NCBI GenBank assembly: GCA_000092065.1
Contig: CP000583.1
DNA from: Ostreococcus lucimarinus
Lineage: Eukaryota
Strand: one strand, 5' to 3'
DNA: 64,000 bases
A model generated the notes under the pieces. It made no database searches. It saw only the letters and a list, made by a program, of their open reading frames with translations, and had not been told where the DNA came from. Made by a program: the position numbers and the translations under genes. Below are positions 1 through 40,657 of this stretch, in pieces; position 1 is the stretch's first letter, and each line of letters opens with the position of its first letter.

Positions 1-1317
1 GCACATCGAACAGCACATGGCAACATAAGCCACCGCCGCGGCGTCGGCTGGTTCGTGCACGACCAAGCCGCGAGAGTCTAAAATTTCCCCATTCTGTGCG
101 TAAGCCTCGCCGCGAATACCGTAGTTGGTAACTTCTGCGGTGCTCGAATTTTCGATGACGCACATGCGCATCACAGTCATGACGTTGCACGTCAGCGTAC
201 CCGTTTTATCGCTACAAATAACCGAAGTGCACCCCAAGGTCTCCACGCTAGGAAGCGTTCGCACGAGAGCGTTCTTTTTCGCCATGCGACGCGTGCCGAG
301 GGCGAGACACGTGGTGACGACGGCGGGTAAGCCTTCGGGAATCGCGGCCACGGCAAGCGCGACGGCAATCTTAAAGTAATAAACCGCACCTCGCAGCAAT
401 CCTCCGTGCGCCTTGTCGGCAAAGTGTCCAATGTTCACCACCCACACTAAAATACAAATTACCGCGATGATTTTCCCGAGCAAGTTCCCGAATTCGTCCA
501 ATTTCTTCTTCAGCGGCGTCAATTCCTCCTCCGTCTGCTCGAGCGTGTGTTGAATCTTCCCCATGGCTGTGTTACTACCCGTACCGACCACCACGCACGT
601 AGCCTTACCCACGGTCACCGTGGTCCCACTGTACACCATGCACGTCTTGTCTTGCAGCACGCACTCGCCGAGATGTTCCACCGCCCGTTCCGTCTTCGCC
701 ACGCTTCCGCTCTCCCCCGTCAACAGCGCCTGATCGCACCGCAGGACGTTGGAGTGAATCTTAACCAATCGGCAATCCGCGGGCACCTTTTCTCCCGTCG
801 CAATCTCCACGATGTCTCCGGGCACGAGCGCCTCCGCGTTCACCTTGCGTTTCTCGCCGTCGCGCGTGCACGTGGCGACGTCCGCCTCGTACTTTTTCAA
901 TTCCTCAATCGCGCGCTCCGCGTTCTTCTCCGTCGCCACTCCCACCGCGGCGTTCGCGATTAATATCGCCACGATCACTCCCGGTTCCAGGAACGCCTCC
1001 GAGCCACCCTCACCGTCCCACAGCGCGAGCGCCAACGACACGAACGCCGCGAGCAACAGCACCTTCACCATCGTGTCGTCGAATTGCTTAATCACCAACG
1101 ACGCGAACGACGTCTCCCGCTGCGCCGGCAGCGCGTTCGCCCCGCACGCATCTCTCCGTCGCTGCACGTCCGCGCGATCGAGCCCGTGCGCGAGATCGAG
1201 GACGCCCAACCGCGCCAAGGTTTCAGTCGCGCTCAATCGATGCGCGTCTTCCGCGTGTCTTCGCCACGCCGTCGCCGCCGCCGCGCTCTCGGGATTGACA
1301 TCGCGCGCGTGAGGCAT
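1..1317 (-). CDS. P-type Ca2+-transporting ATPase (SERCA/ECA-type), N-terminal ~439 aa; the gene continues beyond the window start
   Basis: Minus-strand translation from the ATG at 1317..1315 gives MPHARDVNPESAA... The actuator-domain TGES motif is present (...LRCDQALLTGESGSVAK...). So is the phosphorylation motif ...AIPEGLPAVVTTCLALGTRRMAKKNALVRTLPSVETLGCTSVICSDKTGTLTCN... The ORF runs off the window edge, so it is absent from the ORF track. Confidence 0.9.
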   Translation of the reverse strand, partial: MPHARDVNPESAAAATAWRRHAEDAHRLSATETLARLGVLDLAHGLDRADVQRRRDACGANALPAQRETSFASLVIKQFDDTMVKVLLLAAFVSLALALWDGEGGSEAFLEPGVIVAILIANAAVGVATEKNAERAIEELKKYEADVATCTRDGEKRKVNAEALVPGDIVEIATGEKVPADCRLVKIHSNVLRCDQALLTGESGSVAKTERAVEHLGECVLQDKTCMVYSGTTVTVGKATCVVVGTGSNTAMGKIQHTLEQTEEELTPLKKKLDEFGNLLGKIIAVICILVWVVNIGHFADKAHGGLLRGAVYYFKIAVALAVAAIPEGLPAVVTTCLALGTRRMAKKNALVRTLPSVETLGCTSVICSDKTGTLTCNVMTVMRMCVIENSSTAEVTNYGIRGEAYAQNGEILDSRGLVVHEPADAAAVAYVAMCCSMC

Positions 1318-1459
1318 GCTTTCGCGACGCGCGGTCGGCGCGACGCGCGCTCGAGCGACGCGCGCGCGTCGTCGTTCGCGGATAAGCGTCGCCGGGTGTC
1401 CCGTCCAGCCGAACGTTCGGGACGCCCGACCGCAGTGTTCGCCGCGCGCGACGACCGCG

Positions 1460-2047
1460 ATGCCGTCCTCGACGTCCCGCGCGCTCGTCGCGGCGTCCGG
1501 AATCGTTCTGGCGATCGTCGCGAGCGATATCTACGGCGCGTACGCGTCCACGGCGACGGAGACGGCGCCGTCCGAGACGTTTCGCGCGATGTCCCGAGGC
1601 GCCGGGAAAGTCGTCGTCGGGTTTTGCACCTCGTGATCTTACCGCGGCGGGTTCAACCAGCTCGCGCGCGCGATCGAAAATGAATTCGGGATGGCCACGA
1701 CCGGTGGGCACTGGCCGCCGAGCGCGACGGCGGTGGCGCTCGGTCGAGCGTTCTCGTGGGTGCAAATCGCGCTCTGGACGGCTACGTTTTTCGGCGAGCG
1801 GGCGGCGACGCGCGTCTTCGGCGAGAGCGCGGTCGTCCCGGCGTGGTTGAAGTCGATGAGCGAGAATAAGTTTCAAACCGCCATCATGACTTTTTGGGTG
1901 TTCAACATCGTGAGCGCGAACGTGTTGAACACCGGGGCGTTTGAGGTGTTTTACGACGGCGAGCTCGTGTCTTCAAAGTTGCAGAGCGGGAAATTGCCGA
2001 GGGTCGATACGATATTCGAAGGGATTCGCGCGATTCAGGGGAAGTAG
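1460..2047 (+). CDS. SELENOT: Selenoprotein T (SelT/Rdx family) with an in-frame UGA selenocysteine codon at 1634..1636
   Basis: ORFs 1316..1636 and 1691..2047 are in the same frame and are separated only by TGA. Read-through gives a signal peptide MPSSTSRALVAASGIVLAIVAS followed by ...VVVGFCTS-U-SYRGGFNQLARAIENEF...TGAFEVFYDGELVSSKLQSGKLP. This matches the SelT CxxU redox motif (human ...QICVSUGYRRVFEEY...) and the C-terminus (STGAFEITLNDVPVWSKLESGHLP). Confidence 0.8.
1634..1636 (+). other. UGA selenocysteine codon (Cxx-U) of SelT
   Basis: TGA lies inside the conserved thioredoxin-like CxxU motif (F-C-T-S-TGA-S-Y-R). The upstream and downstream ORFs are in frame. Confidence 0.75.
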
Positions 2048-2119
2048 TGTCATCGCATGGAACGATGAGATGCGATGCTCGTCGTGGTTAGCGATGCGAT
2101 GGGCGCGCGGGATGAAACG

Positions 2120-2185
2120 AACGGTGACGACGCGCGCGGAAAACTCGGTCGAAGAAATCGGCCAGTCGCGCGCGTTTGACTTCTT
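2120..2185 (+). promoter_or_regulatory. Tentative SECIS-like stem-loop in the SelT 3'UTR (non-canonical GUGA quartet)
   Basis: GTGA at 2123 is followed by 12 nt (cgacgcgcgcgg) and then AAAA at 2139. A CGCGCGCG helix can pair with 2164-2171, and a TTTGA follows at 2175-2179. This was built by eye; no canonical AUGA-type SECIS was found in 2048..2430. Confidence 0.15.
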
Positions 2186-2430
2186 CGGTTCGTCCACGCG
2201 CTTCGCTCGTCGTCGTCGTCTGGAAGATGAATCAATATATCATCATCATGTAATAAAAACTAACGTAGTTCTCTCGCGCGAATAAAACTAACGTAGTTCT
2301 CTCGTGCGAGTCGAAGACCGACCGCGGGGCGATGATGGGCGACGTCGACGGCGCTCGCGCGGCGCGTTCGTCGCTCAAATTTTATATAACGACCTTGCCG
2401 TCGAAAATTACAACGCTAAACCGTAAGTGA

Positions 2431-3005
2431 TTACCACGGGATCGGACGGAACTCCTCGTCGCTGCCGTCACCGAGCGTCTTTTGCGCGAGCAAGAACGTC
2501 GGGGCGGTGGACAAGAAGGCGATGAAGGCGACGGCTTCGCCGCCGACGGAGCTCGTGAACAAGTTGACGGCTTGCGGGTTGGCCATGTGCGCCTCCAAGC
2601 CCTCCAACGGGGAGAGACCGGTGACGGCGTATTGGGAAACCATACCGAGGAACGCAACCATCGCGAGGCGCGCGTTCTTCACTTCCTTCACGCGCTTGTC
2701 CGGAGCATCGAGTCCAGCCGGGTCGAACGGGAACGCGTTCAACACGCCGGATTCGCCCGACTTCATGAAACCGCGCGTGCGCGCCGCCTCGAGAATGCTC
2801 ATCGCCACGACTTGGAACCCGACGAGCTGTTGGAAGTCCATACCGTAATCCACGGCACCGGCTTCCCACCACTTCGGCAAACCAACCGCGTCGGTGAACA
2901 AAATACCCGCCGTCGCCGCCATGGCCCAGCGCCCGTTCATGAGCTCCGCCTCTTGCAAGTACGGCAGCGTCTCCGGGTTCGCCCCGAGTCGCAACGGGTC
3001 AAAGC
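2431..3005 (-). CDS. Light-harvesting chlorophyll a/b-binding protein (LHC family), exon 2 including the stop codon
   Basis: The translation GFDPLRLGANPETLPYLQEAELMNGRWAMAATAGILFTD...KNARLAMVAFLGMVSQYAVTG... shows the LHC helix-1 and helix-3 signatures. The AG acceptor is at 3007..3006. Confidence 0.85.
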
Positions 3006-3217
3006 CTGCGCGCGCACCGCATCCGTCAGTCACACATCCACGCGCGCCTCCATTCGTCCCGCGTCCCGCCCTCTTCCGCTCGCGTAGGCGCGTCTCCCCG
3101 CGCCGCCGCCCCGCGCGTCCGCCGCCTTCGAATCGCCATCCCAGCCGTATCCGACCGTATCGTATCTCCCATCGCCCGCCATCGCGCGCGTCCTCGCGCG
3201 TCGCTCGCGTCGCGCAC
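3006..3217 (-). other. Intron of the LHC gene (212 nt, GT..AG)
   Basis: The donor is G|GTGCGCG at 3217. There is a CTGAC branch-like motif about 20 nt upstream of the acceptor ..GCGCAG|. The position is defined by homology: the ORF frame switches between PGDYG and FDPL. Confidence 0.65.
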
Positions 3218-3401
3218 CGTAATCGCCGGCCATCGTCCCATCGAGATATTTCGGCGCCACCGCTCCCGGGTACCACAGCTCGCGGTCCGCGTTCGCCGCG
3301 CGCGCGGCGACGCGCGCGCGCGGCGCGCGCGTCGTCGATCGCGCGTCGACGATCGTCGCGCGGTTCGCGATGGCGTGTCGAGCCGTCGTGAGGGAGAACA
3401 T
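3218..3401 (-). CDS. LHC protein, exon 1 (transit peptide and N-terminal region)
   Basis: MFSLTTARHAIANR...RELWYPGAVAPKYLDGTMAGDYG is the typical LHC N-terminus (PGDYG then FDPLGL). The exon ends in phase 1 before the GTGCGCG donor. Joining the two exons restores ...GDYGFDPL... Confidence 0.75.
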
Positions 3402-3655
3402 CGCGTTCGTCGGGTGTTCGCGCGCGAGAATTTACGCGTTCACGGGTCCGTCGTCGTCGACGGGTGCGCGCGGCTCGTGCGAGGCGCGGGCGTGTGAAGA
3501 CGCGCGCGCGTCCGCGCGCGGCGCGCGCCAATCCGCGCGCGCGATCCGTCGCGATGGATGGGCCGCGTTCGCGTTTGATCGCCTTCGCGCGCGCTCGAAT
3601 ACGGGGGATTCGAATACGCGCGCGGCTGAGTGTCCGTGTGTGAGACGCACCACGA
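3402..3655. promoter_or_regulatory. Divergent promoter region between the LHC gene (-) and the SET-domain gene (+)
   Basis: This is the intergenic stretch between two opposed start codons. It contains a CCAAT box (gccaatc at ~3530). Confidence 0.35.
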
Positions 3656-6733: not shown

Positions 6734-8116
6734 ATGTCGCGCGCGGACGCTCGAAACGCGTACGACGCCATCCTCGACGCGCGCACGCGCGACGCGGCGT
6801 CGATGGAGCGGTTCGCCGCGCTCGCGACGGCGCCGAGCGCGGTGCCGCGCGCCGCCGTCGAAGCGGTCGTCGACGCGGGCGCGCGCGCGGCGCTCGTCGA
6901 CGTGCGCTCGCCGGGAGAGCACGCGCGAGGACGCGCGCCGCGCGCGATAAACGCGCCGCTGTTCGATGACGACGAACGCGCGGCGGTGGGGACGGCGTAC
7001 AAGACGAGAGGACGAGGCGAGGCGCTGGTGCTGGGGATGGCGGCGGCGGCGCCGCGGTTGGAGGCGATCGTGGAGCGCGCGAAGCGAGCGGTGGAGACGG
7101 TGGCGACGACGCGAGGGAACGGTGACGGCGAAGACGATGGTGAGATTGATGTGTACGTGATGTGCTTTCGAGGAGGGATGCGGAGCTCGTGCGTGGGGTG
7201 GTTGTTGAAGGAACGGTTGCGCGGCGCGAGAGTCCACGTGGTCGAGGGCGGATACAAGGCGTTTCGGAGGTGGGCGCTCGAGCGGTGCGGACCGACGCGC
7301 GGATTGCCCGCGCCGAGGGTGTGCGTCGTCGGTGGACGCACGGGGGTGGGGAAGACGCGCGCGCTGTTGGCGCTGCGCGCGAAAGGGGAACAGATTATCG
7401 ATTTAGAGGGGTTGGCGAACCACGCCGGGAGCGCGTTCGGGTGGGTCGGGCGAGAGCCGCAGCCGACTTCGGAGCACTACTCTAATTTAGTCGCCTGCGA
7501 GTGGCACGCGTTGGATGCGAGCAGATGGGTGTTCATCGAGGATGAGGGACCGCACGTCGGGCGGTGCTCGGTGGATCCGTTGTTGTTTGAGCGCATGCGA
7601 AACGCTCCTCTGGTGCTTCGCATGGTCGCCCCGCGCGAGGTGCGGTTGCACACTTTAGTGGAAGATTACGCGACGTCAGAGTTGCGTTCTCATCCGGAAT
7701 GGATGCCCACAATGCGTGAAAGCGTCGATAAGCTCGTCAAGCGGCTCGGTGGCGACCGCGTGCGCGACATTCGAGAAAAGCTCGAAGCCGGCGATTTCAC
7801 CGCCGTCGCCGAAGGTTTGCTCGAGTATTACGACGGTTTGTACGACAAGCACCTCATGAGCAAGCGCAAAGACCGTCGCGCGGCGCGGGCCGCCAACGCC
7901 AACGCCGCCAACGCCAACGCCAACGACGACGCGTGTTCGGTGCAATCCTTCACGTCGTCCACCACCGAAGACGAGGCCCGAGCCGGCGTCGTCGTCGACG
8001 TCAACTGCGTCGCCAACGCCTCGGGTGGCCTCGACGAGGACCTTCTCGTCCGCGATGTTCTGTGCGCCGTCGCTCTGTTCGAATGCGAAGGACCGAACGA
8101 CCCCGAACGCGCGTAG
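6734..8116 (+). CDS. selU: tRNA 2-selenouridine synthase (SelU/MnmH/YbbB family; rhodanese domain plus P-loop)
   Basis: [36 protein letters not shown] aligns with E. coli YbbB [36 protein letters not shown]. The rhodanese Cys loop is CFRGGMRSS. Walker A is [11 protein letters not shown], followed by [13 protein letters not shown]. The conserved [12 protein letters not shown] is present. There is a C-terminal extension of ~90 aa with (AN)n and a Cys-rich tail. Confidence 0.85.
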   Translation: [460 protein letters not shown]

Positions 8117-8996: not shown

Positions 8997-10814
8997 TCAG
9001 ACGCGCAGGACTTTGACGACGCCGTTTGAGTTCGCGGCGACGAGCACGGATTCATCGCTTCGCCACGCGCACGCGCTGATGAAACCGCGAGGTTCGTTCG
9101 CGTCCCGAGCGAACCCGATGGACGCGATGGGCGACGAAAGATCCTTGCGGTAAATGAATACCTCGTTCGTTTCGCTCCCGCACGCGACGTGGTCGCCGAC
9201 GGCGGTGAGGCCGACAAAGTTTCGTTCGTTGACGTGTCCTTTGAGCGCGCACGTGAGTTCGCCTGTGTTGACGTTCCACACGTTGATGGTGTTATCCGTC
9301 GATGCGCTCGCGATTTCGTTGGCGTTGAGGTACTTGACGTAACTGACCGCCTTGCGATGGCTGTCGAGGATTTGCACCGGCTCGGCCAAGCGTCGCAAAT
9401 CAAAAATATACACCTTTTGGTCGACGCAACCGACCGCGATGCAATGCGCGTTCTCGGGTGAATACTGCGCACAGCAGACGTTCGCTTTCATGTCGATCTC
9501 GTGCACGCTGTTCGGTTGATCGGTGTTCCAAATCTTCACCAAGTAATCATCCGAGCCACTCACTAAAAGTCGCGGATCCGTGCGACAGTAGTCAACGGTC
9601 CAGATTCGCTTTTCATGCTCCTCAAAATCTATGATGCTGCACTTTTTCTCGACATCCCACACCGAAACGACACCTTCGTAATCACTCGCCGCTATGTGAT
9701 GCTTAACAAACTTGTTGTAAGACAAGCACGTCAGCTTGGACCGAGTGTTGATTTCATCCGCGGGTTGCTGTGACCCCTCGAGCACGTGCTCGAGGTTGTA
9801 AAACTGAATTCGTTTGGACACACCTGCGGTAGCGAAGTACTCTTGCGTCGAATCGAACTCAATGCTGCTGACGGGCGCGCCTGGGTTTGACGCGTCTTCT
9901 TCGCCGCGAATCTCCGCCGCGATGGAAATGTTCGAGTATCGTTTAAACGTGTCAATAATCGTCGAAAACTCCTCCATAGTCGTCGAGTCCGGGGCGTACC
10001 CTCGACCACCATTGAGCGCGCTACCACTCGACTTACCACCATCGCTGGTGACATCGTCTCGTTCTGCGCTTCTTCTCTTGGAATACCAGCTCTGCAATTC
10101 GCTAAACTGCCTCAACACTCTGCGTCGCTTCGACTCGTCGATGACGATTTGCGACTCACCCGGCCGCGTCAAACCCAGCGCTTCCATCGCGTGCGCGATC
10201 ACTTCTTTATCGTGCAAATCACTACGTTCGTGCGACACTCGTGCACCGCCACCCAAGGCCTCAATTTCCCTTCGCACCGCGTCGATGTCGGCGTCTAAAC
10301 ACCTCAACTCTCGCTCGAGCGCCACCGCGCTCGCCTGCTTCCTCGCTCGGCTCTCTACTAAGAACTCCTTCAACACCTCTCGCGACACTGCGCGTGATTC
10401 CAGCACCAAACTTCGATGTTTCTCGCTCAAAGTCTTCACCAAAGGTGTCAATCGTTCCAAATCGTCTTCGCCGTCCTCGGCGCTCGTCGAAGCCGCCGCC
10501 GCTTCGCTCGCCCCTGACTTCATAGCCGCAACCATCGCGTTCACCGCCGCATTTGGCACTAACTGTGCGCTGGTAAACATCGACGAGCATGTCGGGCACC
10601 GAGCGCTCACCCCGGCGTCCGCGCCGCCGTCTCGGGGCGCCGCCGCCGCCGCGTCGAGCGCCGCGCTCGCGCACCCGTGACAAAACGTGTGTCCGCACGT
10701 CGCCACGCAGTGCGCGTCCGTGAACGGTTCGAGACATATCGGACACGTAACGTGTGCGAGCATTGCTGACGTCGCGCGCGCGTGCGCGCCTCGCGGTAGC
10801 GTTAACGCCGACAT
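8997..10814 (-). CDS. COP1: COP1-type E3 ubiquitin ligase (RING finger, coiled coil, WD40 repeats)
   Basis: The RING is CPICLEPFTDAHCVATCGHTFCHGC. The coiled-coil segment is followed by seven WD40 repeats (...GVVSVWDV..., ...LVKIWNTD..., ...NTINVWNVNTGE...). The COP1-type C-terminus is ...ANSNGVVKVLRV. Confidence 0.85.
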   Translation of the reverse strand: MSALTLPRGAHARATSAMLAHVTCPICLEPFTDAHCVATCGHTFCHGCASAALDAAAAAPRDGGADAGVSARCPTCSSMFTSAQLVPNAAVNAMVAAMKSGASEAAAASTSAEDGEDDLERLTPLVKTLSEKHRSLVLESRAVSREVLKEFLVESRARKQASAVALERELRCLDADIDAVRREIEALGGGARVSHERSDLHDKEVIAHAMEALGLTRPGESQIVIDESKRRRVLRQFSELQSWYSKRRSAERDDVTSDGGKSSGSALNGGRGYAPDSTTMEEFSTIIDTFKRYSNISIAAEIRGEEDASNPGAPVSSIEFDSTQEYFATAGVSKRIQFYNLEHVLEGSQQPADEINTRSKLTCLSYNKFVKHHIAASDYEGVVSVWDVEKKCSIIDFEEHEKRIWTVDYCRTDPRLLVSGSDDYLVKIWNTDQPNSVHEIDMKANVCCAQYSPENAHCIAVGCVDQKVYIFDLRRLAEPVQILDSHRKAVSYVKYLNANEIASASTDNTINVWNVNTGELTCALKGHVNERNFVGLTAVGDHVACGSETNEVFIYRKDLSSPIASIGFARDANEPRGFISACAWRSDESVLVAANSNGVVKVLRV

Positions 10815-27740: not shown

Positions 27741-30700
27741 TCAAATCATCGCCCGGTCGTCGTCGCCGTGCGCGTCGAGCACATCCAAAGCAAAACGTCC
27801 ATCAGGACAATCTCGAGACCTAGTCGCTATGAACGTTCGACCGAGGTTGTCAATAGACCACATGCTTGCGTTTTCAAAATGCTTACGATCCGATCGTCGC
27901 ATCGTTTCGTCCACTTCGGGCATCCACGACGCGTCGTCGTCGAACGGAGCCAACGTGAGGAAATCCGTTCGTACGCACGTGACCAGGTCTTTCTTGGGCG
28001 GTTCGACACCTTTGACGACGACGGCACCAAGGGCGCGGAATCTCGCGGGAGCCACGGGCATCCACACCGTAAAATCGGACTGCTCGCGATATATGAGCTC
28101 AAATCGAACTGGTGGACTGAGCACAACGCTGTTGCCGCCGCTTCGTAAAACCATACTCACAGGCTCGGACGGAGGATTTGTGCCACCGATGACGTGACCG
28201 AACGCGATGTACTTATCTACTGGTGGGATGGGTGCCCAAAAACACGTCTGACCTCGGCTTACCACGCATTTCCAGTTGACACAAGGCATGTATGGAGGAA
28301 GAGGTTCGCCGTCGTCGTCGTACTCGTCCTCATCAAACTTTGAGTTTGATCGTCGCGTCATTTCGTCTGCAATCATCGCCGTCAGCTCCTCCGGTTGATT
28401 CGTACCAGGAGTCGTTTTGATCACACGTGTGATTCGTTGCTTTTCGAAAAGTCGCTTCTTTCGACTGTACTCTTTTAGGTGCAGTACACAATTCGCCGGG
28501 GCTTGCACTTCGACGTGAAGTAACTCGTGCCATCCCACGTGCCAAAGGGCGACGTACTTGTCTGCCGCCGTTCGTTTCAACGTCACCACGCGCTGATCGG
28601 TGAGAACGATCAAATAAGCCCTCGAGTTGACCTCAACGCTTCCGAGATACTTGTCTCGGCCGTAGTACCCTTTGTGTGTGAACACTTCATCGATTCCACC
28701 GCCCAACTTTCCTCGCTCGGCGGTCCGCAATGCGCGCTGCGAGCGCGCGGCGTTCGCGTCGTACGTGCGCAAAATACCGTCGGCATGCTGAGCGCGAGGT
28801 TCCCGAATTCGATGTTGCGGCGCCGACGAGTTAACGCCAAGCGCACTTTTCACTCCATCGACACCCGACGCAATACCTTCCGCAGTTCGACCTACGGCGG
28901 CTAAACCGCCGGCGATGGGTTGCGTCACGGCTCCAACCAAACCTTTACCGACACCTTTGACGAAGCCAAGCGCGCCGCCTTTCGTAGCACCTTCGATCGG
29001 TTTTCGGAAAACCCCGGTAAAACCTCGGAAGACGCCCTTGGCGAGCATCTCGGTGCCGGAAGCTAAACCATTTTTGATGGAATCAGCCTTTTGGGCGTCG
29101 GGTCCAAGCGTAGCGTTCATAGAGTGCGAAAACTTTTTGTCAAGACTTAAAGCGGCGACTCCCGCGGACGCCTGACTAAGCGCCTGTGAAAACGAGTCCA
29201 AAACATCGACACCGACGAGCAACAAGAGTGCTTGTCTGGCGACTTGTCGAGAGTAAGAATCCGATATCATCCTCATGAAGGCTTGCTCGAGCGTGCGCAC
29301 TCTCCTTACTCGAAGCGCATGCAGATACAATTGACCGTCATCGATGTTTACGAAAGCCATGCCAGCCATAAAAGCAGGCATCGCGTGCTTCGGCCTTGAA
29401 TAAAGCGCAGAACGGAATCGCAATCGCAATTTCAGTTCACTCACGTGGAAGCTACCGATAGCTATCGGAAGGTTGACGACTTCGAGACGTTCTCCTCCAT
29501 CTTTTGATGACGTCGTGTTCATCACCTCTGAAAAGTTTACCAGTCGCCAAATGAGCGGTTCGTGCACGGCGAGTTGCACGTCAAGCGGAGCGAAGGTAAC
29601 GTCGATGAATGGATAAATGCGCATTTCCAACCCAGCAGATGTCTTGGTGACCACTTTAACGGTCAAGAATGAATGTTCTCGCGTGTCCCCAAGCAAACGC
29701 ACGACGACAGGATACTGAGAGCCATCATTCATATCGTCGACTTGTAATGATTTCACCGTGAGTGCCATGCGTTCAATTCCCCCACCGACGCCTGAGAGAT
29801 ACTCGAAACCAACGCCACTGGTAGTGCAATTGATAATTTCACTCATCGCACCATCGACAATAGCAAGGCTGCTTTCTGTGATAAGCACTGAGATGCGCGA
29901 CTCCGTCGAGCTCGCGCGGCTTGCGGAGACCAAATGCTTGGAGACTGTCGAGCTGCCGTATGACTTGATACGCACAATACGCCTTCCTCTTCTTAACCGA
30001 CGGGTGACCGGCAGGAAATTGAAGTAAACTGAATCACCACCGTCAATGTCGAGTTCCGCCGTCGTCTTCAGCTCGATCTTTGGTACGGGCAAACCGGGCA
30101 ACATTTCGTTCTCTGTTCCGAGATCCAAGTGGTCGAAATCATAGACGCGTTGAATCGAACTTTGAAACGAGCCTTTCTGAAGCACTCGCACTGCAAGTTT
30201 TCTCGCATCTCGCGGTCGAGACCACGCGAAAGCTTTCGCTGATTGCGGAGGTACCACGATCCACGCTTCCAAATTGTCTTCAATCGCACAAGCTTGTCTG
30301 AAGGCGACGAAATCGACATCGCTGGCGTTCTCAATGAGAATGTTTGCGGTGAAACGAGGTTCGATCGCACAGCTGACTCTTGACACTCCGAGTTTTGACG
30401 TATCCAAATGTAAACTCAACAAATCGAACTCTTCGGGATTGACTGAACTCCGTATCGGGATTTTCATGGAATCCTTGATCGTCTTGATGCCGTACAAGTC
30501 TATCGGAGCAGACCATTTTGCGTGTGGAAGTTTGATTCGAACCAAACCGTCGTCGTTCGCGGTTTGCATCTTCAGAGGCACGGTGATATCAGTCGCCTTC
30601 AAAATTAGTGCGGAAGCGTCTTTGTCATCAGAACTTTGAGCCAGCAAAATATCCATGCCAGTTTGATTCGTAACCGTACATCGCGGCTCAATGAAAACAA

Positions 30701-33700
30701 CCTGCGCGCCCTCCTTCGAGTATTCACTGCCAGTTTCCATTCGCACCGTGAGAGAGTAGAAAGAACCATCTTTGCAAAGTGCTCGCACGACGACGGCGCC
30801 ACGAAGAAGTTCGCGTTCATCTATGGGAATGCCAGGCGATAAATGTACGTGAGCGTTCGAATTGTCGATGCCAACTTCAAGCATGATTACTTGGTTCTCC
30901 TTTGGCGCTTTGCGAATCGCGCAATGATGAAGCGATTGAATGCCTCTCTTGGATTTTGGAGCGTAAGTTTCGACCATTTTGACTTTAGAAATAGACGAAT
31001 CCTCATCCGTTGACGGTATTTCCATCGTCGAAGTTCTAATGGCGAGATTGACACCGCTTTTGTTCACTATGATCAAGGATGCGGAGAAAACTGTTTTGCG
31101 CGCAGAGCGCGAGAGGAAACCAAAGTCAGTGCGTGCGTCCAAAACCGCAGTCCTTCCGTCTGAGCTCCGCAAATTCACTTCATCTAACGAAGTCGCATCA
31201 TCATCAGTTTTGACTGCATCAGTTAATGGCATTTCGAAAGCATCAAAAGCATCCAGTGTTCCGGCTGACGCCAACGCTTCGACCGCCATCGGGGACACTG
31301 GTATCAAACGTCTCGGAGGAACCATGACTTCGAAACCATCATCAAGCGCGAGACGCAAGTAATACGGCGTTTCAGGATGCACACTGTGTATCGGTAGAGA
31401 GTTCCAAGGGGTGATGGTCGCAGTGCTTATCGCCTTGACGCTCAGCGGTGTATCTACTTGTCCTTGAAACACAGTCAGCGTCATCGTATGCGGAGAATGA
31501 TTTGTGATGATGTGCGGAGCGCCGGCAGTGATTTTCCACTCCATTGCCTCTGGGTTGAGGTTGTAATATCCGTCTTCCAATAGCTCACAGTCTTCGAAAC
31601 CTGTACCATCATCTGCAGCTTTACAGTCAGGTGTGACCGCGTCGGCTTCGACTTGAATGCCGATGAATCTGTTTTTACCCTCAGCGTCGGTTGTGCAAGC
31701 AATTTCGGCGCCTTCCATGGCACTATGAATCATACAAGACCACGTGCTTCCATGGTCGTCGACATTTGCCCCCCATGATGATTGTCCTCGCAATGTGATG
31801 TTACGCACAAACAGTTCCGCTCGGGCATCCGGTCCAATAATCGCGGGAATCAATCCCACGGTTTCATTTGGCTTGACGACAACACTCTGACGAAGCGCAG
31901 CGTCATCTTCGGCGTCGAGCACGACTGGTCGATTTTCTTCGATAGGCACTCGTCGACGAACCCAGCGACGCATGCGCACCATAGATAAAGGGCCTTGCTG
32001 TCGGTTGTCGCTAAACGGATATTTCAGATCTGGTAAATTTATCGCGTATGCCCAGCCTTCCGAATCGGTGTTTTCACCGACGTGCACTTCCCACTGGCCG
32101 TCCCACTTGAAATCTGCAGGCAGCAGTCTTGTAGTGAACTCGTCGATTGAGTTCGTGCTGTTAGCTCCTTGACCGTTTGACCACGCTTTGCGTTCGGTGG
32201 GAATCAAATGTTTTGACGAAAAACCAGCGAGGGGTATTCTGCGCTGATTCTCGAAAACTTCTTCGTAGATGCGTTTTGGTCGTTTCTTCGTCGACGCACG
32301 ACCTGGTTTGTCATCGGGATGCATTCCCGCCGGACAAATACAAACTTCAATGTCATTTGACGTAGTGTTTATGAACGTGGCCATCGGTTTGAACGTGCAA
32401 ACGCTCGGACCAGAGGATTTTGCGATGCACCGGGAAGACTTTCCATCAATAATTTGTGCCGCATTCCACACGCGAGCGTCAATCGATTTCCATGGACCGT
32501 GAGGTGCAAAAGCTATGCAAACTTCAGAATCACCTTGATTCGAATCATCATTGCTCGCATGCTCACGCTTGCTGTCTAATTCTACAAACTCGACTCGCAC
32601 CTTCACTTCGAGCGAACCGTCGTCGTCCACGAGCGGAACTTTAATGACGCCTTCACCAATGTGAGAACGCTCTCCCGACACCGTCAGATTGCTGAAGAAA
32701 GACGCTAAAGTCATAGATTTTGTGGCGACACCATTCTCTGAGGATTCGATGTTGTGATCATCAGCAATGACCAATGTCACTAACACATCTTTCGCGTACT
32801 CTCGCCAGTGCGTCTTTGATGCGCGCGTGACGCGCGGAATGATTTGAAATTCTTCATTCCAATTGATGCGTGAATTTTGTGAATTCGACGTGATAGCGCG
32901 AGTTGTCACCTTGGTAGAGCCAAGACCGTCTGGAAACTCGAATATCATGCTCGCAACGATTTGCGACATTTCATCGTCAGTAGGGACATCGGCGGAAATC
33001 AGATGAATGTTTGCGGACCATTTCGCTCGCACCGGCATCTTTTCACTATTCTGCGATGATGTCAAAGGCGACGACGTGTCGTCTATCGGCAACGCGTATG
33101 ATTCAACATGTCGATTTGCTGTTCGAATCTCGCGTGATTCTCCAGGCTTGAGACAGACAGCCTCCGACGAGCCAACCCGCAAATACACGTCTTGATTCAC
33201 AAGGTGATTGTCGTAACGAATAGAGTCTTCATCGGCTGCCCGAAGTTCTGACACACCACTGGCGACCATAGTTGTCTGGTCTTGCCACTCACTCCAACGC
33301 AACATCGATGCTACGAATCTCTGCGAAACTGTCATGCAAAGAGGCGTGACGGTCTTTACTTGCACCGCCGTTCCTGCTGGCGCGGATTCATCGCCTGTAT
33401 CGCTGTACGAGAATTTCAAATAAGAATTCGTCGCATCAATGACGGGTTCCCAAACGTTGCGAGAACTGTTATAAGAGGAAACTGCTACGTTGAACATGGT
33501 GTTTCCATCCATACGCGTAGATGTACCGTTAACAACGAACGCAGTGTCTGACAAAGTGGCGCAGATGAGCGGGTATGAAAACGCCTCTCGCTCGAGTAGT
33601 ACAAGACTCACTCGCGGCATTGAAATCTTGAGAGAAACGTTCGGATCTTTGCCTTTTGACTTGTTCGCCCTGGCTCGAACGTAATCTAAAACAGATTGCC

Positions 33701-36700
33701 GCGGACGGAACTGTCGTGGAGCGATTGCTTTGTCTAGCTTCGAGAAATGAAATAACCCCCACCGCGGAAGCTGATCGAGAGGTGCATCCGGATCCGAACT
33801 CCACAACTGACAGTGCGAACTATGCGCGCTCCAGAGCGCGTCTTGAACGAATATCGCGTCATGCGCCAACTGAGTTGGGTCAGTACATATCCCCTTTCTC
33901 GAAACTTCAATAGCCAAGTCTTGACGTAAGCACGCGCAAGTGGTCAGTTGCGGTGGGTTTTTAGTGTCATTTGTTACGACGTCGCCACAGGAAACGTAAC
34001 CTTGCGGATTAATTGGACGCCACACGGCGTGCGTTCCGCTATCGCCTTGGCGTATGGACCCAACCAATACGAATCCGATCGGCGAAGCGATAATGTCGCT
34101 ATCTTCTGCCACTGCGAGCACACCTGCAGTCGGCGGTTCTGGCCCAGCGATGAGACAGTCGCCGAGCGATACGTATCCTTGCGGCGGTCGGGGGCGCCAA
34201 ATCGACGCCTGGCGACTTCCTTCCGGTTTTTCGTCTGACCATAAAATTTTGAAGTCATACGTCGTCACTGTTTGTAGCATATCTGTACTGTCCATCGAAA
34301 TATTATCTTCTAAAATCTGCTCGGCGTCTGCGATGAGTGGAAACGGTTCGGGTAGCAAGGGCGACGACAAGTCCGCCGCCGTCATGGGATCGAAACCGTC
34401 TGCAAATGCCTGAAAAGTTCGTGGTCCGTTTTTAACTTGTCTTAGATACGCGGATGACGTCTTGTGCGAAATGCACGCACTGTAGTACGCCTCGTTGACA
34501 ACCTCAGCGCGCATGCATCGCATCACATCGAGAGGTGGTGGCTCTTCGTCGGAGGTCACAACGCATCCGAGCGAACAGTACCCGTCCGGAGGAATTGGGC
34601 GCCAAACCACCGACTTTTGCGTTTCACCTTCAAACGCACACATGCGGTGAAACTCTACCGGAGCTTTCGTCAAACCATCAGCGTCTGTGATGACTACGAC
34701 TGGTCGCGTGGGCGGCGTTTCGTCGAGAGTCACGCAGTCGCCTAAGAGCGTAAATCCGGGCGGCGGAACAGGACGCCAGAAAAATGCACCACCTTCTCCT
34801 CCACCTACGCGTACGAAAGTTGAGCATGAGACAGTTTGGTTATACAAACCAGTTGACTGAAGCGTTGCCGTGAACCCTTTGGAGAGCGAAGTAAGTCGCT
34901 CGATAGACTGTGCGTCGAGGACAAAATCAGCGTCTGTGGCTCGCATCATCATTTCCATATCGTCCGCCGTCGCCTGCATGCGTCCGTCTATGTCGATCGG
35001 TCTTAGCACGATACTGGAGTCGAACATGTTTCCTTTTGAGCTCCATTCACTCACCGCGACCTGGAACTGCGTGAACGCAAACGCGGCATCTTGCTTGCTC
35101 TCGGCGGAGGTATATTGAAATTCTGCGTCGGTGCGCATGCGCAACACATAATCCGCTGCTCCGCTTGAGGTATCTAAGAAAATAAGCTCAACTCCAGGCA
35201 TCGACGCCTTGACGTTGTAATCGAACGAAGAAGTTCCCGCGGTAGCGAGGGAGTTCTCACTTCCGCGCCGCGACTTGGTACGATTTTCGTGTACAATGAC
35301 GACACCATCCACCTCTTCCGCGCTCAATTGAGAATCCGCCTCCAACTGCACGAAGTCACTCAGCTCGGAGCCGATCGGGATGATGATTCGCACATTCGTC
35401 AGCTTGAGGTGCCTCGCCGCAGCAATATATATCAACGGCGTGTTTGAAACGTGGAAGACGAGCTCGCGCCCATTGCCATTCAACTCCACTTCTTTGGCTC
35501 CCTCGGGTGCGTTGCAAAGGATGCGCGTCGACGAGCTCAAGTCGAAGTCTTCCTCGAGCGTCAAGGACGCCCGTGTTCCGAAATTCAAGTCTTGCCTCAA
35601 GCGAGCGTTCACAAGTCCTGATTCAGATTCGTCTTCTGATGTATTCGAGAAGAAGTTGTAGATTGCCAAGCCGAATTGCGGATCGTACATCATTCTGCAA
35701 TCTTGGAAAAAGACGTCGCAGTCGTAAGACGTTGACGATTGCTTTGCGTCGACGCGAAACAAAGTCTTGGTAGAAGTCGAGCCATGACTCGACCCAAACA
35801 CTTGTTGGGCTCTCGTCGGAATCCCGACTCTTAAATCATTCAGCGCTAAGTCCGGGCAGATCACTGAAACAGACATCTCGCCGTCTTTGTCCTTCCTGTA
35901 GCCGACGTGCATATTGTCAATTTGAAACGCCGCGAGGGGTTTATTTCGTTTCGGTTTGGCCGAAGCAAATGTCACCATTCGCATTTTATTCACGTTCATC
36001 GACATCAGCATGTATGGTGCGCCGAACTTATCGTTTAAATTGCCCGACTCGACGGAAACAATTTCAGCAATTTGGTATAAAGGCTGCGGGACGGGGACAA
36101 CTTCTGCAAAATTTTCCACGGAAAGTGCTGTGAGGACCCGATATTCAAAATCGGACATTTCGACTTTCGTTTCGTTCAAAAAATCAACGACAATCTCGTA
36201 GCTCGGCGATCGACTTTTCGGGTCCCATTTCGGGCTACGAACATAGACATCGAGCGCCATGTCGCGCTCCGGAATCATGGACGTCGTCTTTTTAAATTTG
36301 TCCCACACACAAGCCGAGCAACGAAAAAATGAAACGTTCGTTGAATCCAAGAGCACGGCTCCCACATCTAAATGCGACTTACCTCCTTCCCATTTTAGTT
36401 TATTGTTAACCCTTATGCACTCGGCATCCATAGAAAACGCTTGATCGGAGGTGCTGCTTCGTGGAAAGATGAGTTCAGGCCTCTCCATTTCGACGGCGTA
36501 AATCATCGTGAAAGGCCTCGGGTCGCCTCGCCGCAACAGCTCTGCATTTCTCTCCGACTCTGGAAGTGCACTTACAGGGAGTGGTGGTGGTGTAAACATA
36601 GACGTATATCCCATCAGTTTCTGGATGAATGCATACATGACAATCATCTTGACATCATGGAATTTGACGCGAACGTCGTATTCGTATCCTGGGAAGTTTG

Positions 36701-39700
36701 ACGCAAGATGGTTGTACATGAAGACATCAATCTGCGTGCGACTGGTATTTGATGCATCAGATGAATTCAAGTCGATGAATTGTCGATACGCATTGTCTTT
36801 CGGCGCAGTCTGATCACCCACGCGAAGGTTTCCGAGCGACATAGAAACTTCTTGCACGGCGGCTTTCGAGTTCATCTCCAACTGCAAATCATCCATGCAG
36901 CAATCAAACAGAGGTTGAAGACTCGACGCTTCTTCTTCTTTTTCGAGATATGCCATGATGACGGTGGAATGAAAATGAAGTAACATTTGGAAACTGATTC
37001 GATCCGAATCCTCGTCGATGAGGCCGCCGAAGGACGCTACTTTTGTAATTGCCTCAGTGTCTGTCGATGAAAACGCCGCCAAGATGACCTTGATTTCCTC
37101 TTGCATGCGATACAGTGAACCGATGGTCGGTCTGTGAAGCGCGAAGCTGATATTCTCGGTATCCAAGCACATTGTTGTACTGATGTTGTTGTATTCTGGT
37201 GAACTTTCGCTTAATTCCTTGTATTTGAGTCGAACTTTCACGTCATCGCGCGCGTGCGCACTCATAAGACGCATGGTTTCGGTTGTACCGCAAAGCTTGT
37301 CCACGATATCCATGCTCGATACCTCCATGACAAACTCTCGGCTATGTTCTTTCGTTTGAACGCTGATCAAAGCCGATGTAGAGCTGAGCTCTGCGACAGG
37401 GATTTCCGTGGATTCTGCCAAGTTGCGATCCAACAGCCTCGCCACACCACCATTTTCTAAACCATCACACTTCGCTCCGGGAATACCCATTGGCTGGCCA
37501 GAAAGATGCACGGACACGCTTCCTAGCTCCATTGTGAGCACAGAGTCTACGACATCTTCCTCGTCGAAGTCCCGATTAAGATTTTCAGAAGTTTCTTCCT
37601 CGACAATAGCTTTCGTAGATGATTGTACCGCTCTCGTGGCCACAGCGACTTCATTCATATCCTGAAGCCATCGCTGCCACTTTGAATGCTCTTGTTCGTC
37701 AGCAAAACGGAATAGCCAAGTATTGTTCGTATCACGCGCGCGTGATTTCGGCGTTTTCGAATCGTGGATCGCCAAAATTAAATTCTGCTTTTCTCCGTCT
37801 TCCTCGTCTTCCAAAACGGTTACTCTAACGCTGTAGCCGATGCGAACGAAATCAATGTAACCCGCCGCATCGGGTTTTTCTAAAATGTACAAGTACGGAC
37901 CTTGAATACACAACCAGCGACTGTGGTAACCGCTCGCGCCACCAACTAGACCCACTTTCTTCGCAGAGGCGGCACCGCTGATGAGCGCATCTGACCAAGG
38001 TTTCGCATCAATTGCGGCGGTGCTGCCGGCATCCTCAGATAATGCCATGGAACTTTGCTTTGCGGACGATGTCATCTGCATGGTCGCGTATACCCGTGCC
38101 ATTTTCGACGGCGACATGTACATCTGAAAAGCACTTAAAGATATTTGCACTTTTGAACGAGGTCCAACTTCAGGTGTCCATCCGGCGCCTTGCATCGCAA
38201 AACGCATTTTGGCGTCACACGGGGCAAGGAGTGTTTCGCAGACTTGATCGAGCGACGTCGACACCGAGTTCCCCCAATCGAAATCCGACGGCGCGAGAAA
38301 CACGGCCGTATCCCTACTGGCGACGGCAAACGTCTGGTACACTGGCGCGCCAGTTTTGCGATCAAAACTCACCGATGGATCAAGTGGATCGGCCACCATG
38401 GTAAAATGACCGAAATCCACCAACGTTTGGAACGCCACTCGACCTCGTCGGCGAACTGGAATTGTCACCTTTGGCGCGTGAATGTCGAACGTCATGGCAA
38501 CTTTATTCAACGCTTCAGTGGTTGATTCTTTTGCTTCTTCAAGCTTAATCATCGCCTCATCCACTTGGAGCGCAAAATTTGTTTGGACTAATTCTTTTGA
38601 GCTAAAAAAGTTGCGCAGTTGGTCGACGGTTTGTCCATCAAAGACAATGTACACCGGAGAAAGCTTGACATCCACGTTGGCATCGAGATCGTGTTCGAGT
38701 GGGTAGGCGTTGTGCTTGACTTCGAGCGCGTGTTTACGCAACGACGCTCCTACTCCGCTCGACAATATTCGATCATTCGTAGTCTCGCACGTCCAACTGT
38801 TAATGGTGAAATACGTGTTTGATTGATCCTTGTACGTCTTCGTCAAGATCTTCGCGCCAATCATACTTGAATTCAAAACGAGACGCTCTTTATTGTGATC
38901 ATCGTGATCGGTGAGCTCCATGGAAAGCTTTTTCATCGATCCTCTGAATTCCATGCCGAGTTCCTTTGGGTCGAAATCCTCTTCCTCCACGCCGCCGCGC
39001 ATGAGCTCTTCCAGCTTGCTCCAGTCGTCGTTTGACATTTCCAGCGACTTAGCCGTCAACTCCGTCGACGATTGCCACATCCACGAAAAATAGCCCGATT
39101 TTTCCGATTCTTCTTCTTTCAACATAAGAATAACATCGCCTCTAGCTTTTGAGGCGAGAGAAGGCGGTCGTCCGTCGGTGCTCGCGGCTTTCGATTTGCT
39201 ATGAGCGATGCAGCGCCAGGCGAGCGCGACTTCAAAGTCGATGTTGCGCTCTATCTCGTGTACTCGATTGATAAACTCAGCGTTTGATGCGCTACCCTCC
39301 GCTATGTATATGGAAAGATATTCACGCCTTAACGCTCCGGTCTCTTGGATATTGCGCCATTCGAAAGTCCCTAAAACGTTCTTCTTTCTCGCCGAGACGG
39401 CGCACTTGGCGTACGTCCACCACGCGCGCGGTTGAGCTTTGACGCTCACCATCGGGCGAAACTCGGCGTGCGGCAATCGCAAGCGATACTGATTGAAGGC
39501 CTCTAGCAAGCGGACCGTACTGCGGTATTGATTACGACTCAACGCCATGCGCGCGTCTTGAAACTTCAAGTCACACATTTGCCTCGGTTCACCCGCCTCG
39601 GTTTGTTCTTTTCGTCCTTTGCGGTGATAAAACAGTTCCACCGTCACCGGGTACAACATGTAGTTTCGCACATCGCTCGGCGCTTCTCCGACCAACCCTA

Positions 39701-40469: not shown

Positions 40470-40657
40470 CGTCGCCCGAGCCGTCGCGCGCGCGCGACGG
40501 TCTGAGACGCCAGGGTGGATTAATGCGGGCAGACGGTTACAGCGGTCGGTCGGTCGGTCGGACAGCGCTGGACGGGCGCGACGCGACGCGACGCGACGCG
40601 GACGCGCGATGGAGCGCGGCGGCGGCGACGAATGCGATGTTATCTCACCGTGCTATC

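What the first reader, a model, noticed from the sequence alone, without database searches (positions are those of the whole stretch)
1316..2047. Selenoprotein T gene with an in-frame UGA that the ORF track splits into two ORFs
ORFs 1316..1636 and 1691..2047 share one reading frame and are separated only by a TGA at 1634..1636. That TGA falls exactly at the U position of the SelT/Rdx CxxU redox motif (GFCTS-TGA-SYRGGF). The N-terminal side carries a signal peptide and the C-terminal side the SelT hallmark TGAFE...SKLQSGKLP. A conventional gene caller would annotate only the 118-aa downstream ORF, or nothing. This gives direct evidence that this genome decodes UGA as selenocysteine.
Basis: partly seen in the sequence, partly recalled or inferred. 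Interest (0 to 1): 0.8.

Follow-up and report, generated by a model that had tools for sequence, protein, structure and literature searches.

The report
Known Ostreococcus selenoprotein T gene

Summary
ORFs 1316..1636 and 1691..2047 share a frame and are separated by one TGA (1634-1636) inside GFCTS-TGA-SYRGGF.

With that codon read through, the Pfam Rdx match rises from 28 to 47 bits and covers the whole profile. Human SELENOT aligns at E 3e-14 with its Sec on this codon.

A 46%-identical orthologue from a metagenome (L020) keeps the TGA. The flanking residues are identical and differ only by synonymous codon changes. All 19 environmental variants of this species also keep the TGA.

A type II SECIS lies at 2118-2192: G-UGA core, 11-bp helix, unpaired AAA and a long mini-stem. 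Against L020 it shows 5 compensatory pair changes and no broken pair. Rfam SECIS_1 detects the L020 element (25.8 bits, E 0.004) but misses the window's own.

The 118-aa ORF is exactly XP_001416767.1 / UniRef A4RV21 'Selenoprotein T' of Ostreococcus lucimarinus CCE9901. The full Sec-containing protein is printed in Lobanov et al. 2007 (Genome Biol 8:R198), whose Figure 1 uses an Ostreococcus SelT SECIS as its typical example.

Verdict: real, correctly interpreted, already known. The likely start codon is 1460, not 1316.

The parts
1318..1459 (.). Divergent intergenic region (promoters and 5'UTRs) between the P-type ATPase gene (minus strand, start codon 1315-1317) and SelT. It is the in-frame upstream part of the mechanical ORF 1316..1636 and is probably not translated.
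   Evidence: Gene calls on identical metagenome contigs place the ATPase at locus 1550-4627(-) and the SelT 5' fragment at 4770-4946(+), which map to window ..1317 and 1460-1636. Translation of 1018-1317(-) gives a Cation_ATPase_N-like N-terminus starting with Met. The only population variant here (1377 C>T) is non-synonymous in the 1316 frame. O. tauri SelT starts just before the hydrophobic segment.
1460..1633 (+). SelT coding sequence, part 1 (58 codons). It encodes the N-terminal hydrophobic signal/anchor segment (residues about 5-29) and the first strand up to C56-T-S of the CxxU motif (Cys codon 1625-1627).
   Evidence: 15-residue Kyte-Doolittle mean up to 2.4 over residues 5-29. Gene callers call 1460-1636 as a separate 58-aa gene.
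1634..1636 (+). In-frame TGA, the selenocysteine codon (U59 of a 195-aa protein).
   Evidence: It aligns to Sec of human SELENOT and to the U in the published O. lucimarinus, O. tauri, C. reinhardtii and T. pseudonana SelT. It is conserved in L020 and in all 19 population variants.
1637..2047 (+). SelT coding sequence, part 2 (136 codons plus stop TAG 2045-2047). It includes the SelT-type hydrophobic insertion and the C-terminal NTGAFEVFYDGELVSSKLQSGKLP motif. The sub-ORF 1691..2047 is the 118-aa protein held in RefSeq and UniProt.
   Evidence: One search shows an exact match to ABO95060.1 / XP_001416767.1 / UniRef100_A4RV21.
2118..2192 (+). Type II SECIS element. Its parts are helix I 2118-2122/2188-2192, the unpaired G 2124, the core 5' UGAC 2125-2128 and 3' UGAC 2177-2180, helix II 2129-2138/2167-2176, the unpaired G + AAA 2139-2142, the mini-stem 2143-2152/2158-2166 and the apical loop 2153-2157.
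   Evidence: The fold is. My own pattern scan found it as the only strong hit in 128 kb. Structure comparison with L020 629-696 gave 14 identical, 1 one-sided and 5 compensatory pairs, with 0 broken. The only meaningful 3'UTR similarity to L020 is the core GTGACGACGCG, 2124-2134. The orthologous L020 element hits Rfam RF00031 at 25.8 bits, E 0.0043. The element is invariant in 19 variants. It matches the published Ostreococcus SECIS traits, a G before the quartet and a long mini-stem.
2249..2309 (+). Distal 3' region. It holds a TGTAA (2249-2253; I infer a green-algal-type poly(A) signal) followed by a 28-nt tandem repeat (2256-2309, 1.9 copies) whose copy number varies between strains.
   Evidence: TRF. 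One search shows one copy deleted in L009 and L012. One search shows assemblies L006 and L010 broken by N-gaps here. The poly(A) role is inference only.

Best explanation
Window 1460-2047 (+) is the single-exon selenoprotein T (SELENOT/SelT, Rdx family) gene of Ostreococcus lucimarinus. It encodes a 195-residue protein with an N-terminal hydrophobic signal/anchor and a thioredoxin-like fold carrying a C56-T-S-U59 redox centre. U59 is encoded by the UGA at 1634-1636. During translation, the type II SECIS hairpin in the 3'UTR (2118-2192, about 490 nt downstream of the UGA) recruits the eukaryotic Sec-insertion machinery (SBP2, eEFSec, Sec-tRNA[Ser]Sec). The UGA is then decoded as selenocysteine instead of terminating. 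Shown here: the reading frame, family membership, conservation of the UGA with purifying selection on both sides, the SECIS structure with compensatory changes, and identity with the published gene. Inferred from established knowledge: binding of the Sec machinery, actual Sec incorporation in this species, ER-membrane location and oxidoreductase function.
For: There is one in-frame TGA in an otherwise open 244-codon frame. The Pfam Rdx PF10262 match on the read-through protein scores 47.3 bits and covers profile positions 1-73/74; the downstream ORF alone scores 28.3 bits and covers 17-73. BLASTP against human SELENOT gives E 3e-14 over 170 aa, with the Sec columns aligned and TGAFE/SKL.SG.LP conserved. 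The orthologue L020 (46% identity, syntenic LHC gene downstream) keeps the TGA. The 8 residues before it are identical with 5 synonymous codon changes, and the 15 residues after it are identical with 4 synonymous changes. The TGA and the SECIS are invariant in 19 environmental variants. For the SECIS, the window and L020 each fold on their own into the same hairpin. A pattern scan gives one strong hit in 128 kb, inside this 3'UTR on the right strand. Five compensatory pair changes and no broken pairs separate it from L020. The core is the only conserved 3'UTR block. Rfam SECIS_1 hits the L020 element at E 0.0043. TGA is otherwise the commonest ordinary stop of long ORFs here, for example VPS13-like 27741..40652 and 8997..10814, so UGA is not globally reassigned. 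The 118-aa ORF equals XP_001416767.1 / UniRef A4RV21 'Selenoprotein T', O. lucimarinus CCE9901. Lobanov et al. 2007 list SelT among the selenoproteins of O. tauri and O. lucimarinus, print this sequence with U at this position, and describe the G-preceded quartet and long mini-stem, with SelT as the example.
Against: Rfam covariance models report no SECIS in the window's own 3'UTR, even at E<=10 and on an 87-nt slice. The L020 hit (25.8 bits) is below Rfam's gathering score of 35. The covariation rests on only two divergent sequences and on a hand alignment fitted to the structure. No tRNA-Sec or other Sec-machinery gene lies in the window. No transcript or protein data were available here. 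The 75Se labelling in the literature is for O. tauri, not this species.
Confidence: 0.95

Rival explanations
1. The TGA is a genuine stop. The locus holds two independent small genes (58 aa and 118 aa), or only the 118-aa gene as annotated in RefSeq.
For: Gene callers and RefSeq annotate it this way. TGA is a normal stop in this genome. Rfam finds no SECIS in the window.
Against: The Rdx domain is split by the TGA, and neither piece is a complete fold. The 54 nt between the TGA and the ATG at 1691 encode residues that are identical or conserved in L020 and in human SelT. The CxxU alignment is exact. The SECIS is supported by structure and covariation.
Confidence: 0.02
2. This is a pseudogene or a sequencing error: a Cys-type SelT (TGC/TGT) that acquired a TGA by mutation or miscall.
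For: Land plants and C. elegans have Cys at this position, and a single base separates TGC/TGT from TGA.
Against: The TGA is present in 19 independent environmental assemblies, in a 46%-identical orthologue and in published O. tauri SelT. The frame is otherwise intact and shows an excess of synonymous changes around the TGA. A conserved SECIS would have no reason to persist next to a pseudogene.
Confidence: 0.01
3. UGA is recoded, but not as Sec. It could be near-cognate read-through inserting Cys, Trp or Arg. Alternatively, termination could predominate in vivo under selenium limitation, with the full-length protein only a minor product.
For: Sec insertion efficiency is known to depend on selenium supply (general knowledge). 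No protein data exist for this species.
Against: The SECIS core, spacing and AAA motif are those that specify Sec insertion. Per Lobanov et al. 2007, this species has 29 selenoprotein genes, and 75Se labelling of the sister species O. tauri verified a selenoprotein banding pattern.
Confidence: 0.02

Closest known systems
Ostreococcus lucimarinus / O. tauri selenoprotein T as published by Lobanov et al. 2007 (Genome Biol 8:R198, PMC2375036)
   Same: It is the same gene. The published O. lucimarinus SelT row (…STATETAPSETFRAMSRGAG-KVV.GFCTSUSYRGGFNQ… MSENKFQTAIMTFWVFNIVSANVLNTGAFEVFYDGE.VSSKLQSGKLPRVDTIFEGIRAIQGK) matches the window protein apart from OCR noise, with U at the TGA. The SECIS has the published Ostreococcus traits, a G before the quartet and a long mini-stem.
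   Different: The published model has 42 residues before STATET and begins MLSRRAVGATRARATR…, which is the 1316 ATG joined to SRALVAAS…. I found no GT..AG intron that produces this. The ATPase start at 1315-1317 and the O. tauri N-terminus favour a start at 1460, which leaves 29 residues before STATET.
Human/vertebrate SELENOT (Rdx family, with SelW, SelH, SelV, Rdx12)
   Same: It shares the CxxU redox motif at the start of a thioredoxin-like fold, a roughly 70-residue hydrophobic insertion, the C-terminal TGAFE…SKLESG.LP motif, an N-terminal signal-like segment and the same length of 195 aa. BLASTP gives E 3e-14.
   Different: Identity is only 25%. The motif is CTSU rather than CVSU. The SECIS has GUGA instead of AUGA, a 9-bp mini-stem and a U·C instead of a U·U pair in the quartet.
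RefSeq XP_001416767.1 / UniProt A4RV21 'Selenoprotein T' (118 aa)
   Same: It is identical to window 1691..2047.
   Different: The database entry is the truncated downstream ORF. It lacks the signal segment, the CxxU centre and 77 N-terminal residues.
Rfam RF00031 SECIS_1
   Same: The orthologous L020 element aligns over the full model (1-64) with the UGA…AAA…UGAU registers as parsed by hand, at 25.8 bits and E 0.0043.
   Different: The window's own element is not reported at E<=10. The likely causes are the long mini-stem insertion and the non-consensus G and U·C. Both elements are below the gathering score of 35.

Membership tests
SelT / SELENOT (Pfam Rdx, PF10262) | Rdx-domain match above the Pfam gathering score that covers the N-terminal redox motif | tested here: met
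   the read-through protein scores 47.3 bits (cut-off 22.6), with residues 50-190 on profile positions 1-73/74. The downstream ORF alone covers only profile 17-73.
SelT / SELENOT (Pfam Rdx, PF10262) | CxxU (or CxxC) redox motif, with U aligned to the Sec of characterised SelT proteins | tested here: met
   C56-T-S-U59 is seen. It aligns to CVSU of human SELENOT and to the U in the published algal, diatom and vertebrate SelT alignment.
SelT / SELENOT (Pfam Rdx, PF10262) | SelT-specific architecture: a hydrophobic insertion inside the thioredoxin-like fold and the C-terminal TGAFE…SKL.SG.LP block, which distinguish it from SelW, SelH and Rdx12 | tested here: met
   141 residues are matched to 73 profile positions, implying an insertion of about 68 residues. 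NTGAFEV…SKLQSGKLP aligns to STGAFEI…SKLESGHLP.
SelT / SELENOT (Pfam Rdx, PF10262) | N-terminal signal peptide or membrane anchor | tested here: inconclusive
   Hydropathy only: the 15-residue Kyte-Doolittle mean is 1.6-2.4 for windows starting at residues 5-15. No signal-peptide predictor was available, and the start codon (1460) is inferred.
Eukaryotic SECIS-dependent selenoprotein gene | In-frame UGA conserved in orthologues, with protein-level constraint on both sides | tested here: met
   (L020: TGA conserved, synonymous-only changes in the flanking 8 + 15 codons). (19 variants). (O. tauri U).
Eukaryotic SECIS-dependent selenoprotein gene | SECIS in the 3'UTR by structural criteria: R-UGA…GA non-Watson-Crick quartet, helix II, unpaired AA(R) 9-13 nt from the UGA, and an apical loop or mini-stem | tested here: met
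   G-UGAC 2124-2128 and UGAC 2177-2180; an 11-position helix with 11/11 pairs; AAA 12 nt after the UGA; a 9-bp mini-stem. Five compensatory changes against L020 and none broken. The expected number of chance hits is about 1.2 per 128 kb, so roughly 0.004 for this 384-nt UTR strand.
Eukaryotic SECIS-dependent selenoprotein gene | SECIS recognised by a curated covariance model (Rfam RF00031) | tested here: inconclusive
   Window element: no hit at E<=10. Orthologous L020 element: 25.8 bits, E 0.0043, full-length alignment, but below the gathering score of 35. SECISearch3 was not available.
Eukaryotic SECIS-dependent selenoprotein gene | Sec-decoding machinery in the genome (tRNA-Sec, SBP2, eEFSec, SPS, PSTK, SepSecS) | not testable with these tools
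   There is no tRNA gene in the 64-kb window, and the rest of the genome is not in hand. The literature reports 29 selenoprotein genes in O. lucimarinus.
Eukaryotic SECIS-dependent selenoprotein gene | Physical incorporation of selenium into the protein | not testable with these tools
   This needs 75Se labelling or mass spectrometry. Lobanov et al. 2007 labelled O. tauri, not this species.

The most novel reading that the evidence does not exclude
A bacterial-type tRNA 2-selenouridine synthase gene (MnmH, 6734-8116) lies only 4.7 kb downstream of SelT. The most novel reading still open is that this reflects a selenium-utilisation gene neighbourhood in a picoeukaryote, through co-regulation or a shared acquisition history. 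A more practical reading is that Mamiellales-type SECIS elements (GUGA plus a long mini-stem) are systematically missed by Rfam. In that case picoeukaryote selenoproteins would be split into fragments throughout metagenome gene catalogues; this fragment alone is listed in 1461 blocks of the collection's index. Neither reading changes what the SelT gene itself is.
Probability: 0.05. Interest if true: 0.35.

Novelty: already known. Interest (0 to 1): 0.1.

Why it matters
This is a clean textbook case of eukaryotic UGA-to-selenocysteine recoding. The first-stage reader recognised it correctly from raw sequence alone. Biologically it adds nothing new. SelT was listed, aligned and its SECIS drawn for Ostreococcus in 2007, and the genus is known for one of the largest eukaryotic selenoproteomes. 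The practical value is curatorial, in three ways. First, RefSeq and UniProt still hold only the 118-aa downstream fragment. Second, metagenome catalogues carry the gene as two unrelated small ORFs in well over a thousand data blocks. Third, the Rfam SECIS model misses this species' element. Together these show how selenoproteins of abundant marine picoeukaryotes stay hidden from automated pipelines.

Tried and rejected
- **Rfam on the window's 3'UTR.** I ran cmscan three times with progressively smaller slices. No SECIS hit appeared. I treat this as a sensitivity failure, because the orthologous L020 element does hit RF00031.
- **ATGA at 2112-2115 as the SECIS core.** Rejected. It lies 24 nt from the AAAA, has no matching 3' GA register, and sits in the lower stem.
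- **Hairpin at 2051-2078 (catcgcat…atgcgatg).** It has no SECIS features.
- **The search for homologous proteins with the read-through protein.** Two searches, one with X and one with C at the Sec position, returned only the protein's own cluster. They gave no help with orthologues. One search was a parameter error.
- **Scans for further orthologues.** Nothing was found in viral contigs or in bacterial/archaeal genome contigs. The single metagenome scan gave eight near-identical loci and one divergent locus, so the covariation rests on two lineages.
- **Intron hypothesis for the published N-terminus (MLSRRAVGATRARATR… joined to SRALVAAS).** I saw no GT..AG pair that gives that junction. This is left unresolved, and I favour the 1460 start.
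- **Second SECIS-pattern hit at 36958-37007 (+).** It has 7/8 pairs and lies antisense inside the VPS13-like ORF, at the level expected by chance. Rejected.
- **Extra length in L006 and L010 at the 28-nt repeat.** These turned out to be N-gaps in scaffolds, not extra repeat copies.
- **Global UGA reassignment.** Rejected, because TGA terminates many long, well-supported ORFs.
Full report
**1. Observation**

Translating 1316-2047 in one frame gives 244 codons with a single internal stop. That stop is the TGA at 1634-1636, in the context VVVGFCTS*SYRGGFNQLARAIENEF, and the frame ends at TAG 2045-2047. All quoted motifs are present.

**2. What the protein is**

I started the protein at the ATG at 1460 and put Cys in place of the stop. 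That 195-residue read-through product matches Pfam Rdx (PF10262) at 47.3 bits and E 2.3e-12, with residues 50-190 on profile positions 1-73 of 74. The downstream ORF alone reaches only 28.3 bits on positions 17-73, and the upstream ORF alone matches nothing. So the domain is split by the TGA.

- 141 residues are spread over 73 profile positions. This reflects the hydrophobic insertion of about 70 residues that separates SelT from SelW, SelH and Rdx12 (the family distinction is from my own knowledge of the Rdx family).
- BLASTP against human SELENOT gives E 3e-14 and 25% identity over 170 residues.
- In that alignment CTS[U]SYR lies on CVS[U]GYR, and NTGAFEV…SKLQSGKLP lies on STGAFEI…SKLESGHLP.
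- Residues 5-29 are strongly hydrophobic. This fits a signal peptide or anchor, but I could not run a predictor.

**3. Which organism, and is it known**

The 118-aa ORF is, residue for residue, ABO95060.1 / XP_001416767.1 'predicted protein [Ostreococcus lucimarinus CCE9901]', which is UniRef100_A4RV21 'Selenoprotein T'. The index lists the same sequence in 1461 data blocks of the assembly collection. The ten contigs shown are metagenome assemblies, some labelled marine, and three of them are 0.96 Mb long. On those contigs, gene callers report two separate genes of 58 aa (window 1460-1636) and 118 aa.

Lobanov et al. 2007 (Genome Biol 8:R198, PMC2375036) list SelT among the 26 selenoprotein genes of O. 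tauri and the 29 of O. lucimarinus. Their Additional file 2 prints the O. lucimarinus SelT with U at this position. Apart from OCR noise, that sequence equals the window protein. O. tauri, Chlamydomonas, Thalassiosira and human SelT also have U there, while Arabidopsis, rice and C. elegans have Cys. The gene is therefore already published as a selenoprotein.

**4. Independent test of the UGA**

One metagenome scan returned eight near-identical loci and one divergent orthologue, L020. L020 is 46% identical, comes from a 1642-nt contig, and has the same light-harvesting-complex gene converging downstream.

- L020 has TGA at the homologous codon.
- The eight residues before it (VVVGFCTS) are identical, with five codons changed synonymously.
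- The fifteen residues after it are identical, with four synonymous changes. This is the signature of translation through the TGA in this frame.
- Across 19 environmental variants of the same species (L001-L019), the TGA never varies.
- TGA is otherwise the commonest terminator of long ORFs in the window, for example the 4303-codon VPS13-like ORF and the 605-aa ORF at 8997..10814. UGA is therefore not globally reassigned, and a local recoding signal is needed.

**5. The SECIS**

The 3'UTR shared with the converging LHC gene is 2048-2431. The slice 2100-2215 folds into a long hairpin (-59.6 kcal/mol, z = -3.5). Reading the fold as a SECIS gives these parts (coordinates):

| Part | Coordinates |
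|---|---|
| Helix I | 2118-2122 / 2188-2192 |
| Unpaired G | 2124 |
| Quartet, 5' UGAC | 2125-2128 |
| Quartet, 3' UGAC | 2177-2180 |
| Helix II | 2129-2138 / 2167-2176 |
| Unpaired G + AAA | 2139-2142 |
| Mini-stem (9 bp) | 2143-2152 / 2158-2166 |
| Apical loop (5 nt) | 2153-2157 |

The AAA begins 12 nt after the UGA. This is what Lobanov et al. describe for Ostreococcus: a G rather than an A before the quartet and a long mini-stem, with SelT as their Figure 1 example.

Several results support this reading:

- A SECIS-pattern scanner I wrote finds two hits in both strands of the 64-kb window. One is this element, with 11 of 11 helix positions paired. The other is a weak hit at 36958-37007, antisense inside the VPS13-like ORF.
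- Dinucleotide shuffles give 1.2 hits per window on average. A chance hit inside this particular UTR strand is therefore expected about 0.004 times.
- The same scanner finds one hit in L020, at 636-684, about 80 nt after its stop codon.
- The two 3'UTRs are otherwise unalignable. Their best shared block is GTGACGACGCG, window 2124-2134 = L020 636-646.
- On a hand alignment of the two elements, 20 pairs are comparable. Of these, 14 are identical, 1 changes on one side (G·U to G-C), 5 change on both sides while staying paired (one in helix II, four in the mini-stem) and none is broken.
- Each sequence also folds on its own into this shape.
- The element is invariant in the 19 population variants.

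Rfam gives a mixed result. RF00031 SECIS_1 aligns the L020 element end to end at 25.8 bits and E 0.0043, which is below the gathering score of 35. It does not report the window's own element even on an 87-nt slice. I attribute the miss to the 24-nt mini-stem insertion and to the non-consensus G and U·C. This remains the weakest point. The covariation rests on two lineages and on an alignment fitted to the structure.

**6. Gene boundaries**

- The divergent P-type ATPase gene on the minus strand begins at 1315-1317. Its N-terminus translates as a typical Cation_ATPase_N segment. The + strand ATG at 1316 overlaps that start codon (CATG).
- The 142 nt up to 1459 are therefore a divergent intergenic region.
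- The Arg-rich extension of ORF 1316..1636 is probably not translated.
- O. tauri SelT begins a few residues before its hydrophobic segment, like a start at 1460.
- The published O. lucimarinus model has 42 residues before STATET and begins MLSRRAVGATRARATR. It matches neither simple reading, and I found no canonical intron that yields it. This is a minor open point.
- Downstream of the SECIS lie a TGTAA (2249-2253) and a 28-nt tandem repeat (2256-2309). Some strains have one copy of the repeat and others two.

**7. Mechanism**

Shown here:

- a single reading frame of a SelT protein, interrupted only by a conserved UGA at the catalytic position;
- a conserved, covarying type II SECIS about 490 nt downstream in the 3'UTR.

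Inferred from established knowledge of eukaryotic Sec decoding:

- SBP2 binds the kink-turn core and recruits eEFSec with Sec-tRNA, which decodes the UGA;
- the product is a membrane-associated thioredoxin-like oxidoreductase with a Cys-x-x-Sec centre.

**8. Rivals**

- **A real stop with two genes.** This is contradicted by the split domain and by the conserved 18 codons between the TGA and the next ATG.
- **A pseudogene or sequencing error.** This is contradicted by 19 assemblies, a distant orthologue, O. tauri and the retained SECIS.
- **Non-Sec read-through.** This cannot be excluded without protein data, but nothing supports it.

**9. Verdict**

It is already known: the same gene in the same species was published in 2007. 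What remains is curation. The public protein entry is truncated, and Rfam misses this SECIS variant. Interest is low.

Noticed in passing
window 6734-8116 (+): A 460-aa ORF 4.7 kb downstream of SelT is a strong match to bacterial-type tRNA 2-selenouridine(34) synthase MnmH/SelU (NCBIfam NF008750, 285 bits against a cut-off of 241; TIGR03167, 282 bits). It is a second selenium-utilisation gene in the same neighbourhood of a eukaryote. JGI names it tRNA 2-selenouridine synthase, and a 2023 microalgal review lists mnmH. I did not check whether the proximity to SelT is conserved in other species.
   Followed up: partly
window 1691-2047 (+) and 1460-1636 (+): RefSeq XP_001416767.1 / UniProt A4RV21 hold only the 118-aa downstream fragment of SelT. 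Metagenome gene catalogues carry the gene as two separate ORFs (58 + 118 aa). The index lists the 118-aa fragment in 1461 data blocks of the collection.
   Followed up: yes
window 2249-2309 (+): A TGTAA is followed by a 28-nt tandem repeat (AAAACTAACGTAGTTCTCTCGCGCGAAT, 1.9 copies) between the converging SelT and LHC genes. L009 and L012 have one copy, and scaffolds L006 and L010 break into N-gaps here. It may mark the poly(A) region, but its function is unknown.
   Followed up: partly
window 2056 and 2283: All 19 environmental loci differ from the window at the same two 3'UTR positions: T instead of C at 2056, and an extra A at 2283. The window therefore carries either strain-specific alleles or reference sequencing errors.
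   Followed up: no
window 27741-40652 (-): The low-GC stretch (about 48-53% against about 60-67% elsewhere) coincides with a single uninterrupted 4303-codon ORF. That ORF encodes a VPS13-like lipid-transfer protein with VPS13_N, Vps62, VAB and VPS13_C domains.
   Followed up: partly
window 1315-1318: The start codon of the minus-strand P-type (SERCA-like) ATPase gene and the first ATG of the mechanical + strand ORF overlap in a CATG palindrome. The published O. lucimarinus SelT model appears to use this upstream ATG with an unexplained junction to SRALVAAS.
   Followed up: partly
window 36958-37007 (+): A weak SECIS-like pattern (ATGA…AAAA…GA, 7/8 helix pairs) lies antisense inside the VPS13-like ORF. 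It is at the frequency expected by chance.
   Followed up: partly
window 1342-1434 (-): There is a sub-threshold Rfam hit to Caulobacter sRNA CC1840 (27.9 bits against a gathering score of 50, E 0.26) in the GC-rich divergent intergenic region. It is almost certainly a GC-rich hairpin artefact.
   Followed up: no
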